A stretch of 32,000 bases of DNA, taken from positions 30,001 through 62,000 of the forward strand of contig CAZPUN010000021.1 in NCBI GenBank assembly GCA_964589775.1, read 5' to 3'. The notes beneath the pieces are model-generated. The model was not told the DNA's origin. It was given only the letters and a program-made list of their open reading frames with translations, and did not search any database. This stretch comes from an uncultured archaeon. GTDB taxonomy: Archaea > Asgardarchaeota > Thorarchaeia > Thorarchaeales > CAZPUN01. Both the position numbers and the translations under genes were made by a program. This document shows, one piece after another, positions 17,361 through 25,102 of the stretch. The first letter of the stretch is position 1; each line of letters begins with the position of its first letter.

Positions 17361-19445
17361 TTAAAAAACATATCTATATCTTTCAACAAATTCTTGTCTT
17401 TTATGTGGGTTCCAATTCTCAATATTCTGCAAGTATGTTGAAATTCTAGAAACTATTTCTGTTGATTCTGATTTGCATTTTGGACAAGTTCCAAAAATTT
17501 TGCCTTTTTCGAATGTGATTTCTACAGGTGATGATAACTTGCATTTAGAGCAATATAAGCTATCTACAGTAAATGCAAAATTTCCGATATTAAGCTCAAT
17601 TGCATTTTGGAGAATATTTCCAACGTGTTCTGGATTTGCATATCCTCTGATAAATATCTGTGATGGTGCACCGCTAAAGACAAGTTTGCTCATATCTGCT
17701 TCGAATTGCAATCTTTTGTCTATGTCGATTTCTATATCTTCCGGAGCTCCAATTGCTGGTGTATAATATGGTGCATGCTCAACTCCTCTGATATATTTTC
17801 GCATACCTGGGAACCTCATATAATCCTTCATGGCTAATTGACCGCCTACAAGTTCTCCAGGGCTTCTTGTTAATGCAATTCGTACATCTAAATCTTCAGC
17901 AAACTCATTTGCTCGTTTTGCTGTATATTCTATGACTTTTCTAGCAAAAGCATTTCCTTCTTTTTCATAAATTCGGCTCTCTGTAATTATTTTACATGTT
18001 GTATCCAGTCCAATTATGCCAATCAGAAAGTTTTTGTCTACACCTTGAATTAATGGTTTTCCATCTAATAATTTCTGATTATAAAATGGAATTATTTTCT
18101 TTTTGATTATCTTTTGGAGGATCTCTTTGCGTGTTGCAAATGCTTGTTTTGTCAGATCTAAATATTTGTCCAGAATTTCAAAAAATCGCCTTTCGTCATT
18201 TCGTCCATGCCATGCTGCACGCGCATAGTTTGGTGTTATAGTACTTGATGAGCCAAAAATATACGTCCCATTCTTGAAAGATTCAATTTTCTCCGGGTCT
18301 GAATTCGTATATATGAAATCTGCACTTATTATTGAACCCGCAATGATGTTATTTGGTTTAAAATTAATAAATTGAGGTGTTCCAAATTTGGAGGACAGGT
18401 CGGTGATCTTTTCTAATGATTCTTTGTATTTTTTCTCATTGAGCATGTCTGTTATGATTTCAATTTTTGGAAATTTGAAAGGTCTTCCCTTAGCATCTCC
18501 TCTACTTAGGACATCTATTATTGCATTGAAAAATGCATTTGTTTCTTCTTCGAAATCTGCGTATGTATCTGTAGATTGAACGCCTCCCGGAAGTATAGCC
18601 GGAACATCTCTAAGTATATCTGGAACACCTGGCGTTAAACTGATAGAACTGAAGATCACCTGTCCTCCTCTTGAAACATATTGTTGAGACATTGTATAGA
18701 CAAATTGTTGTGCTCTTTGTATAATCTCTTTTTGCGTGAGTCCTTTCAAATATGGTGCTAGGAGAGTGTTGAAATAAAAGAATCCCTGGCTGCCTGCAAA
18801 ATTATTTTGTGCAGATGTTAACCATGTAGACGCATGACTAAGTGCAACATCAATATGTTTTGCAGGAGCCGCGGAATTCGAATGTATACCACCCATCCCA
18901 TCTGGTTCAAGCCCGTGTTTCAGGACCATTCGTAAGTCCCAATAATACTCTTCATCACGGGTCGTAAAATATTGAATATTTCCGATATAGATTTCTCCTT
19001 TCATATGAGCATCTGCGATATATGTCGGGATAGTAAGGAACGTGTGTTGCTCCATAACTTCATCATGGATCACTTTTGCAACACTTTCTGGATTATGTGC
19101 GAGATGTGCGTTTGATGCATGAATTGATGGATTTGCAATTATTTTATTTAGGTCATATAGTGGAACTCCAACTCGTGTGTATTTTTTGCGTGCTTCTTCA
19201 AGTCCCATTTCCGCCAGGACGCTGTTGCACATTTCTCTAATAAGAGGCCCAGACAGAAATTCTATTCCTGAATGATAAATTCTCTGAACTACTTGCCATG
19301 CAATTTTGATGGCTGTTTTGCGAGGTACTTCCGCTTCAACAATTAGACTTTCAATAATTCTATCCGGGTCAAACGGAAATAGATCTTTTGAGCTAGTACG
19401 TACATACGGCAGACTTTTTGACCATGCTTTCACTTCATCATACAT
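17361..19445 (-). CDS. Class III (anaerobic) ribonucleoside-triphosphate reductase homologue with ATP-cone; predicted catalytically inactive
   Basis: ATP-cone (VRTS...FDPDRI...LSGPLIRE), RGGQVIFSS, GDAKGRPFKFP, Zn ribbon CSKC/CPKC, C-terminal SRISTY...WNPHKRQE. ATG 19445 is preferred; the ORF track extends to TTG 19553. Confidence 0.85.
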   Translation of the reverse strand: MYDEVKAWSKSLPYVRTSSKDLFPFDPDRIIESLIVEAEVPRKTAIKIAWQVVQRIYHSGIEFLSGPLIREMCNSVLAEMGLEEARKKYTRVGVPLYDLNKIIANPSIHASNAHLAHNPESVAKVIHDEVMEQHTFLTIPTYIADAHMKGEIYIGNIQYFTTRDEEYYWDLRMVLKHGLEPDGMGGIHSNSAAPAKHIDVALSHASTWLTSAQNNFAGSQGFFYFNTLLAPYLKGLTQKEIIQRAQQFVYTMSQQYVSRGGQVIFSSISLTPGVPDILRDVPAILPGGVQSTDTYADFEEETNAFFNAIIDVLSRGDAKGRPFKFPKIEIITDMLNEKKYKESLEKITDLSSKFGTPQFINFKPNNIIAGSIISADFIYTNSDPEKIESFKNGTYIFGSSSTITPNYARAAWHGRNDERRFFEILDKYLDLTKQAFATRKEILQKIIKKKIIPFYNQKLLDGKPLIQGVDKNFLIGIIGLDTTCKIITESRIYEKEGNAFARKVIEYTAKRANEFAEDLDVRIALTRSPGELVGGQLAMKDYMRFPGMRKYIRGVEHAPYYTPAIGAPEDIEIDIDKRLQFEADMSKLVFSGAPSQIFIRGYANPEHVGNILQNAIELNIGNFAFTVDSLYCSKCKLSSPVEITFEKGKIFGTCPKCKSESTEIVSRISTYLQNIENWNPHKRQEFVERYRYVF

Positions 19446-19502
19446 GTTTTCAATGTTCCTTCTATCCTCTGACACATATCGCACCTTCTCGGAGAAATTA
19501 TA

Positions 19503-19541
19503 AAGGCAAAGGAACCTCTCTCCTTTTTGCTCCTTTACCTT
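19503..19541 (-). promoter_or_regulatory. 13-bp hairpin in the putative 5' leader of the nrdD-like gene
   Basis: On the minus strand AAGGUAAAGGAGC pairs with GUUCCUUUGCCUU; both deviations from complementarity are G-U wobbles on this strand. Confidence 0.5.
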
Positions 19542-19758
19542 GGATGAGACCAAACACCATAAGTGGCCTTCCCGGCAGTATTATTAAATCTTAAATTATG
19601 ATATATAACCTTTGGGAATATCCCTGTATTTTCTGCGTATGACATAATATGCTAGGCGCTAATTAATTTATGTAAATCCTTATTAAGCATTTCAAAAGTT
19701 TGTGTTACATAGATTTAAACGGACTTTTTCAGATAAATAATCAGAAAATGAGTCCGGA

Positions 19759-20103
19759 GTGTACTTGATGAGTGAAGAAATATCTAATGAACTCGATAAA
19801 ATAATACGGATGCGAGAATCATTAGCATTTAAAATATTAGAACTATTATCAGTATCATATAAACCACTTAGACCTGTGGAACTGTCTGAAATATTAGGCG
19901 CAAGCCAAAAAGATATTACAGCTACTTTAATACGATTAAATAAAAAAGGTCTTGTAGTAAAGGTACCTAATGATAGTATGTCTCTCTGGACTTCTCATAT
20001 TTCATTATTGAAATACATATCAAATATTTGGAATCGCATAAAATCCTTGGAGTCTAAGTATGAAGATCTTGAAAAAATTGTTAAAGATTTACTAGGTGAA
20101 TAA
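19759..20103 (+). CDS. Winged-helix DNA-binding protein with C-terminal coiled coil
   Basis: KILELL...PLRPVELSEILG.SQKDITATLIRLNKKGLV wHTH pattern; heptad tail RIKSLESKYEDLEKIV. ATG 19768 is an alternative start. Confidence 0.75.
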   Translation: MYLMSEEISNELDKIIRMRESLAFKILELLSVSYKPLRPVELSEILGASQKDITATLIRLNKKGLVVKVPNDSMSLWTSHISLLKYISNIWNRIKSLESKYEDLEKIVKDLLGE

Positions 20104-20105
20104 TA

Positions 20106-20486
20106 ATGAATGAACAAAATCTTAATGAATCTGATTTGGTCGAATCATTAAAATTAATTGAAGATGTATTTCCACGACTTACAAATCCTAGAAATATTAA
20201 AAGTCTTCAAATATTAAATGTACTTTTATCTTCTATAACTGGGGACCCTATTCGTCCATCTGCAATACAGAAAATAATTGAAAATGCATCATCGGCCCCT
20301 ACATCGAAACAATCTATTACAAATGCCGCAAAAAGACTAGATGCATCTAAATTAATCGAAAGAAATAAAGATGGCTATGCTGTTCGGTATGGCTTTCTAA
20401 TCGCTGTATTACTTCAAACTGTAATCTCATTATACCGTCGAATCGAAGATCTCGAAGATAAAATTGATGAGTTATCTAATAAATAG
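20106..20486 (+). CDS. Winged-helix protein with C-terminal coiled coil (paralogue of upstream gene)
   Basis: QILNVLL...PIRPSAI...SKQSITNAAKRLDASKLIER; tail RRIEDLEDKIDEL; starts 2 nt after the upstream stop. Confidence 0.7.
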   Translation: MNEQNLNESDLVESLKLIEDVFPRLTNPRNIKSLQILNVLLSSITGDPIRPSAIQKIIENASSAPTSKQSITNAAKRLDASKLIERNKDGYAVRYGFLIAVLLQTVISLYRRIEDLEDKIDELSNK

Positions 20487-22350: not shown

Positions 22351-22438
22351 GCGGAGGTTGCCAAGTCTGGTCAAAGGCGCAAGGCTCAGGACCTTGTCCA
22401 GTAGTGGTTCGCGAGTTCAAATCTCGCCCTCCGCACCA
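22351..22438 (+). tRNA. tRNA-Leu(CAG)
   Basis: GCGGAGG/CCTCCGC acceptor stem, A discriminator plus CCA, anticodon arm CAAGG-CTCAGGA-CCTTG, long variable arm, GCGAG-TTCAAAT-CTCGC T-arm. Confidence 0.97.
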
Positions 22439-24599: not shown

Positions 24600-25102
24600 A
24601 GTGTGTTGTACTAGACAGTGGTGCGATATTTAAAATTGATATTTCCGTTTTGCCATTTTCTTTTTTCACAACGCAATCTGTACTTTCTGAAATTAAAAAT
24701 AGACGTACTGTGTCCCGAATAGACTTCGCCATATCCGCTGGTCGCTTGAGTATTCAGAATCCTAATAATAATTCGATTGAAAAAATACAGGAAGTAGCAA
24801 CTAAAACTGGGGACATCGCTGTATTATCCCATGTAGATATTGATGTATTGGCGCTTGCTTATGAGTTAAAAGGGTCGAATGAAGATGTTGAACTATGGTC
24901 TAATGATTTTGCAGTTCAGAATGTTGCGAGTATTTTGAATATTTCGTGGCGTTCTCCCGAGTATAGAATAAAATCTGTATTGATCTGGGAATTTAAATGC
25001 CCGGGTTGTGGAAAGAGGTTTAAGAAGTTGACTCATGATGGTCTTTGTGATGTGTGTGGTACGCCCCTACGCAGACACAGAAAAAAACGAGTTATGCGCT
25101 AA
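24596..25102 (+). CDS. nob1: Nob1 rRNA-processing endonuclease (PIN domain + Zn ribbon)
   Basis: VLDSGA, TGDIAVLSHVDIDVLALA, SNDFAVQNVA, CPGCG...CDVCG. Confidence 0.9.
   Translation: MKCVVLDSGAIFKIDISVLPFSFFTTQSVLSEIKNRRTVSRIDFAISAGRLSIQNPNNNSIEKIQEVATKTGDIAVLSHVDIDVLALAYELKGSNEDVELWSNDFAVQNVASILNISWRSPEYRIKSVLIWEFKCPGCGKRFKKLTHDGLCDVCGTPLRRHRKKRVMR

What the first reader, a model, noticed from the sequence alone, without database searches (positions are those of the whole stretch)
17361..19445. Intact but apparently catalytically dead class III ribonucleotide reductase (pseudo-NrdD)
Seen: an uninterrupted ORF of about 695 aa whose glycyl-radical loop reads RISTY (Thr codon at 17436-17438) instead of R-x-x-G-Y. 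The segments expected to hold catalytic cysteines read YFTTRDEEYYWD (about 18930-18975) and NNIIAGSIISADF (about 18308-18356). The only Cys residues are one in the ATP-cone, one in TTCK and four in the Zn ribbon. No nrdG activase gene is adjacent. Established: NrdD needs the radical Gly and a finger-loop thiyl Cys; ATP-cones sense ATP/dATP. Inference: loss of all radical chemistry without frameshifts suggests a retained non-catalytic role, such as a (d)NTP sensor, a regulatory subunit in a heterodimer with an active NrdD, or a scaffold.
Basis: partly seen in the sequence, partly recalled or inferred. Interest (0 to 1): 0.78.

Follow-up and report, generated by a model that had tools for sequence, protein, structure and literature searches.

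The report
Selected, catalytically dead anaerobic ribonucleotide reductase
This uncultured Asgard (Thorarchaeota-like) archaeon keeps an intact copy of its ancestral oxygen-sensitive DNA-precursor enzyme that has lost every residue needed for its radical chemistry. Another, imported enzyme does the work, so the old copy has most likely been kept for a non-enzymatic role that is still unknown.

Summary
Window 17361-19475 (minus strand; probable GTG start at 19475, 704 aa) encodes a full-length NrdD fold. The radical Gly is Thr (RISTY). The thiyl Cys is Ala, the beta-1 Cys is Glu and two further finger-loop Cys are Ser. The triphosphate motif YIKDR reads YIGNI and the NxN flap reads NAH. The Zn ribbon, loop 2, N406, E531 and Y671 are kept.

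It is neither an assembly error nor a fresh pseudogene. Three further assemblies of a sister lineage (83-84% identical) share all the losses and have no indel or stop. The protein diverges at the pace of a neighbouring GTPase (85%). Its first 154 residues are invariant, although that segment is among the more variable in active relatives.

All closer relatives (44-47% identical, Thorarchaeota) are canonical. The genome holds a second, Bathyarchaeia-like, split NrdD plus one NrdG, and no class I or II RNR was found. The ancestral enzyme was therefore functionally replaced and then retained.

Its role is unknown. I favour a regulatory or scaffold function, but I found no partner, no DNA box and no proven nucleotide site.

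Dead NrdD lineages arose repeatedly (at least 8 times in my sample). Some are fused to wHTH and ATP-cone domains; this scan has met those fusions before on other genomes. I found no paper describing any of them.

The parts
17361..19475 (-). psi-nrdD coding sequence, stop codon included. Probable GTG start at 19475 (704 aa). An in-frame ATG at 19445 gives the 694-aa form (P0001) whose numbering is used here.
18984..19445 (-). Residues 1-154: cone-like N-terminal domain, linker, flap and start of the first core helix. Identical in the window copy and in the sister-lineage copies.
   Evidence: 0 of 150 differences, against a mean of 20.5% (minimum 6%) in 754 canonical pairs of equal overall identity
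19176..19406 (-). Degenerate ATP-cone-like domain (residues 14-90).
   Evidence: PF03477 scores 21.5 bits, below the 25.8 cut-off. AF2 gives a beta-hairpin plus four helices.
19104..19112 (-). Remnant of the NxN flap, reading N112-A113-H114. The second Asn, which contacts the substrate base in P. copri NrdD, is lost.
18975..18989 (-). Triphosphate-binding motif position. Y-I-K-D-R in canonical Thorarchaeota NrdD (Y112-R116 in T. maritima) reads Y-I-G-N-I here and Y-I-D-N-I in the sister lineage.
18948..18950 (-). Beta-1 catalytic Cys position (T. maritima C125, P. copri C171), which is Glu166 here.
18642..18680 (-). Loop 2 (YVSRGGQVIFSSI), retained with R259, Q262 and F265.
   Evidence: Invariant columns; mapped to P. 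copri and T. maritima loop 2
18315..18341 (-). Finger-loop motif. Canonical A-G-C-S-S-C-C-S-H reads A-G-S-I-I-S-A-D-F. The thiyl-radical Cys position (T4 C290 in MGCR, T. maritima SCCR) is Ala375 at 18321-18323, and Gly in the sister lineage.
17496..17795 (-). Residues 551-650, the last barrel strands that pack against the radical loop. This is the fastest-evolving part.
   Evidence: 40% different between the two lineages, against a mean of 22.5% (maximum 33%) in canonical pairs. Only 20-24% identical to the canonical consensus.
17475..17552 (-). Zn ribbon, with all four Cys kept (C632, C635, C654, C657).
17430..17450 (-). Former glycyl-radical loop, S-R-I-S-T-Y-L. The Thr670 codon ACA lies at 17436-17438.
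17351..17360 (-). T-run (TTTTTTTCTT) directly after the stop codon, which looks like an archaeal terminator. A TATA-like box follows, before the next gene, so the gene is probably transcribed alone (inference).
19497..19504 (-). TTTATAAT, a TATA-like box about 25 nt upstream of the GTG at 19475. It may be the promoter of a leaderless transcript (inference only).

Best explanation
This is the vertically inherited, Thorarchaeota-type class III ribonucleotide reductase of this lineage, turned into a pseudoenzyme.

Shown: it keeps the whole NrdD fold but cannot carry out radical ribonucleotide reduction. The radical Gly, the thiyl Cys, the beta-1 Cys, the extra finger-loop Cys, the triphosphate-binding motif and half of the NxN flap have all been replaced.

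Shown: dNTP synthesis in this genome can be assigned to a second NrdD of Bathyarchaeia type. That enzyme is split into a body and a 66-aa glycyl-radical subunit, and the genome has one NrdG. No class I or II RNR was found.

Inferred from comparative data: the loss predates the split of two lineages, and since then the gene has been kept by purifying selection. Constraint has moved away from the catalytic half of the barrel. It now falls on the N-terminal cone-like domain with its linker and flap. Conserved blocks also remain around loop 2, the strand carrying N406, the E531 loop and the C-terminal Zn-ribbon/radical domain.

Inferred, weakest step: these are the elements that couple cone, flap, loop 2 and C-terminal domain in active NrdD. 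The protein therefore most likely acts as a non-catalytic binding or switching module, regulatory or scaffold. Other dead NrdD lineages that are fused to DNA-binding and ATP-cone domains suggest the same kind of use. Its ligand and its partner are unknown.

The confidence given (0.72) is for 'catalytically dead NrdD kept by selection for a non-enzymatic role'. For the narrower claim that the role is regulatory switching, my confidence is about 0.35.
For: Fold and family:
- Pfam and NCBIfam give full-length matches.
- The AF2 model has pLDDT 91.5 and pTM 0.90. Foldseek's top hits are all NrdD structures: 8p2s, 9dca, 4coj and 1h79.

Loss of chemistry:
-, mapped to the published catalytic residues in PMC11226230 and PMC4493059.

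Not an artefact:
- Source-run contigs are identical.
- P0002, P0121 and P0122 come from other assemblies and share RISTY and the same six Cys.

Selection:
- The four copies have no indel or stop at 16.4% divergence.
- Simulated unconstrained substitution leaves both lineages stop-free in about 8 of 10,000 cases.
- Differences are enriched in columns that vary among active enzymes (8.5% at invariant columns against 21-29% at variable ones; Mann-Whitney p = 3e-6).
- The neighbouring EF-2-like GTPase shows the same divergence pattern: 85% to the sister lineage and 45-48% to Thorarchaeota. This protein shows 84% and 44-47%.
- Constraint has shifted. The N-terminal 150 residues show 0 differences, against 20.5% in 754 canonical pairs. 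Residues 551-650 show 40%, against 22.5%.

Replacement scenario:
- 33 of 40 same-order genomes carry one canonical NrdD of this type, and none carries the C7 type.
- The C7 NrdD is 66-70% identical to Bathyarchaeia NrdD and has every catalytic motif.
- The only NrdG is 30-38% identical to the relatives' NrdG, like the C7 NrdD (33-36%). Vertically inherited genes are 43-48% identical.
- No class I or II RNR was found.

Recurrent reuse of dead NrdD:
- 31 of 80 aligned sequences (71 representatives plus 9 references) lack at least one of Gly670, Cys166 and Cys375. The tree needs at least 8-9 changes of state.
- Six 50%-identity clusters are wHTH + ATP-cone + dead NrdD.
Against: - No function was shown. 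No partner, ligand or DNA site was identified.
- No DNA of the sister lineage could be fetched, so dN/dS was not computed. The invariant N-terminus could also reflect recombination between the two lineages.
- The clade is small: two lineages and four assemblies.
- The cone-like domain falls below the Pfam threshold and lacks the hairpin Lys-Arg pair (my manual alignment to the C7 cone), so nucleotide sensing is unproven.
- Gene neighbours are not informative. One neighbouring wHTH gene is a core gene of 38 of 40 related genomes, and in those whose contigs hold both genes it lies far from nrdD.
- The gene shares no upstream DNA word of 8 bases or more with two or more of the working RNR genes.
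- I cannot prove that the sister-lineage proteins used as yardsticks (P0125, P0258) come from the same genomes as P0121 and P0122.
Confidence: 0.72

Rival explanations
1. Slowly decaying relic. After the imported NrdD took over, the old gene became neutral and has simply not yet been hit by a stop or a frameshift.
For: - The catalytic half evolves fast: 40% divergence in residues 551-650, beyond any canonical pair.
- The thiyl position itself varies (Ala or Gly).
- The stem branch is long (0.99 substitutions per site).
- The distribution is narrow.
- No function or partner was found.
Against: - Four assemblies have no stop or indel. The chance of that from substitutions alone is about 8e-4.
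- Overall divergence equals that of a functional neighbour.
- Differences avoid the columns that are conserved in active enzymes.
- 154 consecutive N-terminal residues are invariant.
- The Zn ribbon and the C-terminal domain are as conserved as in active enzymes (18% against a mean of 27%).
Confidence: 0.13
2. Still a radical enzyme. NrdG would install a threonyl C-alpha radical, as in the threonyl radical enzymes of the PFL superfamily, and the protein would do new chemistry without the usual Cys relay.
For: - Gly-to-Thr is the substitution of the experimentally validated threonyl radical enzymes (PMC11528403).
- The radical loop, Tyr671 and the Zn ribbon are conserved.
- An NrdG is present in the genome.
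Against: - The aminoacyl radical enzymes keep the catalytic Cys and sit next to an activase. Here no Cys is left in the finger loop or on beta-1.
- The only non-ribbon Cys are C73 in the cone and C484, and C484 also occurs in some canonical relatives.
- The substrate-binding motifs are lost.
- The strands around the loop are the least constrained part.
- The only activase looks like the partner of the imported NrdD.
Confidence: 0.05
3. Working RNR completed in trans. The stand-alone glycyl-radical peptides of this genome (the 66-aa subunit on contig 7 and the orphan on contig 48) would supply the radical to this barrel.
For: The genome encodes two free glycyl-radical domains, so trans-acting radical domains exist here.
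Against: - The barrel keeps its own C-terminal domain in place (AF2).
- It has no thiyl Cys to receive a radical and no triphosphate-binding motif.
- The free peptides match the C7 NrdD family (CE[VI]YSRVVGYLRP), not this one.
Confidence: 0.02
4. Assembly, binning or sequencing artefact.
For: The genome is a metagenome-assembled genome, and depth in the probable source run is only about 8x.
Against: - Contigs of the run are identical to the window across the gene.
- Three other assemblies share every substitution.
- The gene lies on a 178-kb contig among genes with the same pattern of relatedness to Thorarchaeota.
- About 38 conserved positions are changed, not just one.
Confidence: 0.01

Closest known systems
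Class III (anaerobic) ribonucleotide reductase NrdD, Thorarchaeota-type clade (canonical relatives P0003-P0070)
   Same: The fold, the length, the cone-like N-terminal domain, the Zn ribbon, loop 2, N406, E531 and Y671 are shared. Identity is 44-47%, and the protein nests inside this clade in the trees.
   Different: It has no radical Gly, no thiyl Cys, no beta-1 Cys and no triphosphate-binding motif. The NxN flap is half lost. Selective constraint has moved from the catalytic half to the N-terminus.
Aminoacyl (threonyl) radical enzymes of the PFL superfamily (Fu et al., JACS 2024, PMC11528403)
   Same: Thr stands at the position of the radical Gly, two nucleotide changes from Gly, in an otherwise intact glycyl-radical-enzyme fold.
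   Different: Those enzymes keep the catalytic Cys and have an adjacent activase, and they belong to the PFL family. Their authors searched class III RNRs (IPR012833) and found only Gly.
wHTH + ATP-cone + dead NrdD fusion proteins of archaea (for example P0434, P0481 and P0483, Promethearchaeota). I found no paper on them; this scan has met them on other genomes.
   Same: They are full-length NrdD barrels that have lost Gly, the Cys residues, NxN and PAE, and they are mislabelled as active reductases.
   Different: They carry an ArsR-like wHTH (DUF7347) and an ATP-cone that passes the threshold. They form a separate, older clade at 27-31% identity. The window protein has neither domain and arose independently inside an active clade.
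NrdR (bacterial RNR repressor: Zn ribbon + ATP-cone; PMC9110341)
   Same: It shows that a nucleotide-sensing module from the RNR world can be reused for regulation. It also combines a Zn ribbon with a cone-type domain.
   Different: NrdR is a small DNA-binding protein with a working ATP-cone and no reductase barrel. There is no evidence that the window protein binds DNA or nucleotides.
Known RNR-derived pseudoenzymes of class I: betaherpesvirus R1 homologues (M45/UL45) and yeast Rnr4 (from my own knowledge, not checked here)
   Same: These are full-length RNR subunits that lost catalytic residues and were kept for another role: interference with host signalling, or help in assembling the partner's cofactor.
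   Different: They belong to a different RNR class, use different chemistry and come from different organisms. Their roles cannot be transferred to this protein.

Membership tests
Active class III RNR (NrdD) | NrdD alpha/beta-barrel fold and family HMM | tested here: met
   PF13597 scores 335 bits over the full length and TIGR02487 scores 341 bits against a cut-off of 326. AF2 model plus Foldseek hits to NrdD structures.
Active class III RNR (NrdD) | Radical glycine in the C-terminal R-[IV]-x-G-[YF] loop | tested here: not met
   R-I-S-T-Y, with Thr670.
Active class III RNR (NrdD) | Thiyl-radical Cys of the finger-loop motif (T4 C290, MGCR/SCCR) | tested here: not met
   Canonical S-C-C reads I-S-A here and I-S-G in the sister lineage.
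Active class III RNR (NrdD) | Beta-1 Cys conserved in all RNRs (T. maritima C125) | tested here: not met
   Glu166.
Active class III RNR (NrdD) | Triphosphate-binding motif [HY]-x-[HK]-D and the NxN flap | tested here: not met
   Y-I-G-N and N-A-H.
Active class III RNR (NrdD) | Structural Zn site (four Cys) before the radical loop | tested here: met
   C632, C635, C654 and C657 are invariant.
Active class III RNR (NrdD) | Cognate activase NrdG in the genome | tested here: inconclusive
   One NrdG is present (TIGR02495, 210 bits, contig 7). It is 30-38% identical to the relatives' NrdG, like the imported NrdD, which suggests that it serves that enzyme.
Aminoacyl/threonyl radical enzymes (AARE/TRE) | Ala, Ser or Thr at the radical position | tested here: met
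   Thr670.
Aminoacyl/threonyl radical enzymes (AARE/TRE) | Conserved catalytic Cys next to the radical residue | tested here: not met
   No Cys in the finger loop. The criterion is taken from PMC11528403.
Aminoacyl/threonyl radical enzymes (AARE/TRE) | Adjacent radical-SAM activase | tested here: not met
   None lies in the window; the nearest weak radical-SAM hit is about 63 kb away on the same contig.
Aminoacyl/threonyl radical enzymes (AARE/TRE) | Stable C-alpha radical after activation | not testable with these tools
   Needs EPR on activated protein.
wHTH + ATP-cone + dead-NrdD regulators | N-terminal ArsR-like wHTH (DUF7347) | tested here: not met
   P0001 has no such domain. A profile of the fusions' wHTH does not hit the neighbouring small wHTH genes.
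wHTH + ATP-cone + dead-NrdD regulators | ATP-cone passing the Pfam threshold | tested here: not met
   21.5 bits against a cut-off of 25.8.
wHTH + ATP-cone + dead-NrdD regulators | Common descent with that clade | tested here: not met
   P0001 and P0002 nest with canonical Thorarchaeota-type NrdD (support 100). The fusion clade lies elsewhere in the tree (FastTree, so only indicative).
Unitary pseudogene | Frameshifts, stops or truncation; neutral pattern of change | tested here: not met
   Intact in four assemblies, with a non-uniform, conservation-aware pattern of change. dN/dS was not computable.

The most novel reading that the evidence does not exclude
This may be a young, still HTH-less stage of a path that archaea have taken repeatedly, from active anaerobic reductase to signalling protein. 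The invariant cone-like domain and flap would bind a ligand or a partner. That partner could be the NrdG activase, or the free glycyl-radical subunits of the split enzyme. The coupling between cone, flap, loop 2 and C-terminal domain, inherited from the enzyme, would turn that binding into a switch that tunes dNTP supply. If so, comparing this protein with its 46%-identical active cousins would show which changes turn an enzyme into a sensor.
Probability: 0.15. Interest if true: 0.8.

Novelty: new variant of a known kind. Interest (0 to 1): 0.58.

Why it matters
Pseudoenzymes derived from ribonucleotide reductase are known for class I, but I found no paper describing one for the glycyl-radical class III enzyme. 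The one published survey that looked for non-Gly class III RNRs reported none.

This case comes with unusually clear context:
- active cousins at 46% identity;
- an imported replacement enzyme in the same genome;
- a measurable shift of constraint from the catalytic half to the N-terminal domain.

That makes it a convenient natural experiment on how a radical enzyme is repurposed. There is also a practical point: annotation models (TIGR02487, Pfam) label this protein and many other dead NrdD homologues as working reductases. That can mislead metabolic reconstructions of anaerobic archaea.

Tried and rejected
Neighbour comparison and dN/dS were therefore impossible.
- Scans of genome contigs and metagenome contigs with P0122 returned no DNA of that clade.
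- Sequencing runs: no RNA holder was listed. Three other DNA runs hold only short pieces, and only X2 has two near-identical 150-base contigs inside the gene. Two SNPs in all is too few for pN/pS.
- Complex prediction of the protein with the two neighbouring wHTH proteins gave no verdict (score 0.00, controls not run).
- Synteny: the 1.5-kb flanks of the canonical nrdD in 29 related loci hold no homologue of the window's neighbours.
- Shared regulatory box: no word of 8 bases or more is shared by three or more of the four upstream regions of psi-nrdD, the working nrdD, nrdG and the orphan radical peptide.
- Rosetta-stone link: a profile of the fusions' wHTH does not match the neighbouring wHTH genes. 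One of these genes is a core gene of 38 of 40 relatives, and in those whose contigs hold both genes it lies far from nrdD; the other was found only here.
- 'Relocated Cys' idea: C484 also occurs in some canonical relatives (E-M-C), so it is not a new catalytic residue.
- I first read the long stem branch as specific acceleration. The EF-2-like neighbour shows the same 85%/47% pattern, so much of that branch reflects the depth or speed of the lineage.
- Rfam found nothing overlapping the gene.
Full report
**What is there.** The minus strand of window 17361-19553 is one open frame. From the ATG at 19445 it gives 694 aa (P0001). The three sister-lineage proteins begin MSEDRR., which matches an in-frame GTG at 19475 preceded by GAAGGTG, so 704 aa is the likelier product. 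Pfam NRDD matches model positions 2-562 of 562 at 335 bits. NCBIfam TIGR02487 scores 341 bits, just above its 326-bit cut-off, whereas the subfamily equivalogs fall far below theirs. An AlphaFold2 model built on 48 homologues is confident (pLDDT 91.5, pTM 0.90). Its best structural matches are the NrdD structures of P. copri, S. thermophilus, T. maritima and phage T4. A T-run follows the stop codon directly, and the next gene has its own TATA-like box, so the gene probably stands alone.

**The catalytic residues are gone.**
- HMMER alignments to solved NrdDs put RISTYL opposite RITGYL (8p23) and RIVGYL (4coi). The Thr codon is ACA at 17436-17438.
- I compared the protein with 27 canonical relatives. 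Of 156 columns that are at least 85% conserved, 118 are kept and 38 are changed.
- The changed columns include the beta-1 Cys (E166; T. maritima C125, P. copri C171). They also include the finger-loop motif, where canonical G-C-S-S-C-C reads G-S-I-I-S-A. Position 375 corresponds to the thiyl Cys of the T4 MGCR and T. maritima SCCR motifs (PMC4493059).
- Also changed: the second Asn of the NxN flap (H114; PMC11226230). The triphosphate motif is lost as well: Y-I-K-D-R in the active cousins, Y112-R116 in T. maritima, reads Y-I-G-N-I here.
- Kept: the four Zn-ribbon Cys, loop 2 (R259, Q262, F265), N406, the Glu that bridges substrate and flap in P. copri (E531), and the Tyr after the radical position (Y671).
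- The protein therefore cannot generate or relay the radical, and it has probably lost its grip on the NTP substrate as well.

**It is real and it is shared.**
- Logan contigs of the probable source run (a hydrothermal vent metagenome) cover 17000-19800 without a difference.
- In a search of 5.8 billion proteins, only P0002 (84% identical) shares RISTY. Every other listed hit that reaches the C-terminal radical loop keeps the radical Gly, and nearly all read R-[IV]-T-G-Y.
- The P0002 cluster holds two more proteins from NCBI assemblies.
- All four copies have the same length, the same six Cys and RISTY, and no indel.

**Retained, not decaying.** I could not get DNA of the sister lineage, so the argument rests on proteins.
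- (a) When the window gene is mutated at random until 57 residues differ, it keeps an open frame in 2.9% of trials. Both lineages staying open has a probability of about 8e-4, before counting indels.
- (b) Differences between the two lineages fall at 8.5% of the columns that are invariant among active enzymes, and at 21-29% of the variable ones (p = 3e-6).
- (c) The neighbouring EF-2-like GTPase is 85% identical to its sister-lineage copy and 45-48% identical to Thorarchaeota. This protein shows the same pattern, 84% and 44-47%. In addition, 7 of 10 window proteins have no cluster mate at 90% identity or above. The dead reductase therefore evolves like an ordinary working protein. The imported, working NrdD is more conserved (96%).
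- (d) The constraint has moved. Residues 1-154 are identical in the two lineages, apart from one change in one assembly. In 754 pairs of active Thorarchaeota NrdDs of the same overall identity, that segment differs by 20.5% on average and never by less than 6%. Residues 551-650 differ by 40%, against a mean of 22.5% and a maximum of 33%. The C-terminal domain differs by 18%, against 27%.
- Measured against the canonical consensus, the N-terminus has diverged no more than in an active sister clade, whereas residues 351-650 have diverged much more.
- Recombination could mimic the invariant N-terminus. Only DNA can tell.

**How it came about.**
- The genome (2.16 Mb, 96.75% complete) is the only member of its family among the species representatives searched.
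- Of 40 genomes of the same order, 33 carry one canonical NrdD of this type, and none carries the second type.
- The second NrdD, on contig 7, has every catalytic motif. It is 66-70% identical to Bathyarchaeia enzymes but only 33-36% identical to the Thorarchaeota ones.
- It ends after the third Zn ligand, and its radical domain is a separate 66-aa ORF 16 nt downstream. The same split occurs in 10 of its 120 closest homologues.
- The only NrdG is likewise 30-38% identical to the relatives' NrdG, whereas vertically inherited genes are 43-48% identical.
- No class I or II RNR was detected.
- The simplest history is this: an imported nrdD-nrdG system took over, the ancestral activase was lost, and the ancestral NrdD lost its chemistry but was kept.

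**What it may do.** I found no direct evidence.
- The N-terminal domain has ATP-cone topology, but it scores below the Pfam threshold. By my manual alignment to the C7 cone, it has Thr-Ser where the hairpin Lys-Arg pair (K7 and R8 in P. copri) binds phosphate. It does keep a basic C-terminal helix (ARKKYTR). Nucleotide binding is therefore open.
- The conserved blocks are the flap, loop 2, the N406 strand, the E531 loop and the C-terminal domain. These are the elements that the P. copri work describes as one coupled network linking cone, substrate site and radical domain. A switch-like, non-catalytic role is a reasonable inference from that.
- A search of 1.84 billion cluster representatives supports reuse of such scaffolds. 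Of 80 aligned sequences (71 representatives plus 9 references), 31 lack at least one of the three key residues and 20 lack all three. A FastTree tree needs at least 8-9 changes of state.
- One such clade is wHTH + ATP-cone + dead NrdD, and one of its members comes from Promethearchaeota. Another clade has two ATP-cones and no radical domain.
- This scan has reported the fusion family several times on other genomes. I found no paper on it.
- The window protein is not a member of that family. It arose separately, inside an active clade, and has no wHTH.
- Attempts to tie it to the two small wHTH genes next door all failed or gave no answer. No shared upstream DNA word links it to the working RNR genes.

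**Threonine.** Gly-to-Thr is the substitution found in the threonyl radical enzymes of the PFL superfamily, which do form a stable radical (PMC11528403). The authors report that the same search in class III RNRs found only Gly. This is therefore, to my knowledge, the first Thr at that position in an NrdD. Those enzymes keep the catalytic Cys and an adjacent activase, and here both are missing. I give the radical reading about 5%.

**Verdict.** Its core inference, retention for a non-catalytic role, is supported by comparative evidence. The specific roles it named are not supported. I rate the finding as a new variant of a known kind, an RNR-derived pseudoenzyme in the glycyl-radical class. It is of moderate to good interest, limited by the narrow distribution and the unknown function.

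Noticed in passing
Own genome contig 7, 30814-33082 (locus L001/L046), outside the window: The working NrdD is split. A 693-aa body ends after CPIH...CPIC plus a low-complexity tail. A 66-aa ORF 16 nt downstream, with its own GAGGTGA, carries the fourth Zn ligand and the RVVGYL radical loop. The same split is seen in 10 of its 120 closest homologues and in the sister lineage (P0125). A fused relative (P0128) has an insertion at that very point.
   Followed up: partly
Own genome contig 48, about 24614-24775 (locus L004), outside the window: A stand-alone mini-ORF encodes only a glycyl-radical loop (CEIYSRVVGYLRPIDQWNEGK) of the contig-7 NrdD type. It may be a spare radical subunit. The scan has already noted it.
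   Followed up: no
Proteins P0399, P0402, P0408, P0414, P0424, P0425, P0441, P0117 (metagenomes): A clade of NrdD homologues, mostly 690-730 aa, several with two ATP-cone matches. Most keep the HxHD triphosphate motif but lack the NxN flap, the finger-loop Cys and PAE. Most also lack the Zn ribbon and radical domain; P0424 keeps a degenerate tail. Source databases label them as ribonucleoside-triphosphate reductase.
   Followed up: partly
Proteins P0434, P0467, P0478, P0481, P0483, P0519 (metagenomes; P0483 from Promethearchaeota): These are ArsR-like wHTH (DUF7347) + ATP-cone + full-length NrdD proteins. Their tail looks like a radical domain but has no Gly at the radical position, and the finger-loop motif is degenerate (one aligned Cys survives in two members). 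The architecture is that of a transcription factor. The same family has been reported several times by this scan on other genomes.
   Followed up: partly
Proteins P0404 (KITDYY), P0493 (RITRYY, Deltaproteobacteria MAG), P0517 (RVTDAY): These are further single lineages of NrdD homologues, with Asp or Arg at the radical Gly position and no catalytic Cys. Each sits next to canonical sequences in the tree.
   Followed up: no
window 19759-20103 (+) and 20106-20486 (+): Two small wHTH-like genes are transcribed divergently from psi-nrdD. The second is a single-copy core gene in 38 of 40 same-order genomes (35-45% identical) and, where the contigs allow a check, is not near nrdD there. The first was found only in this genome, plus one weak hit. 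Neither has a paralogue in the genome.
   Followed up: partly
window 11325-13421 (-): A 698-aa EF-2-like GTPase, labelled 'GTP-binding protein' or 'elongation factor 2' in Thorarchaeota. I used it as a divergence yardstick: 85% identical to the sister lineage and 45-48% to Thorarchaeota.
   Followed up: partly
window 16756-17304 (-): A 182-aa membrane protein just downstream of psi-nrdD resembles an ECF-transporter S component only weakly (24.6 bits, cut-off 30.7). It has its own TATA-like box. HypB follows at 16004-16672.
   Followed up: no
Relatives' NrdD genes (e.g. G024:C20 and G021:C63; proteins P0068, P0099, P0102, P0105): Many canonical archaeal NrdDs of this clade are interrupted by inteins (PF14528/PF14890), giving open frames of 1100-1250 aa.
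   Followed up: no
window 17511 and 17720: Two single-base variants appear in public-run contigs. G>A at 17511 falls on a third codon position, in another study's run. C>T at 17720 falls on a first codon position, in a minor contig of the source run.
   Followed up: no
window 22351-22435 (+): A tRNA gene (Rfam RF00005, 54.7 bits).
   Followed up: no
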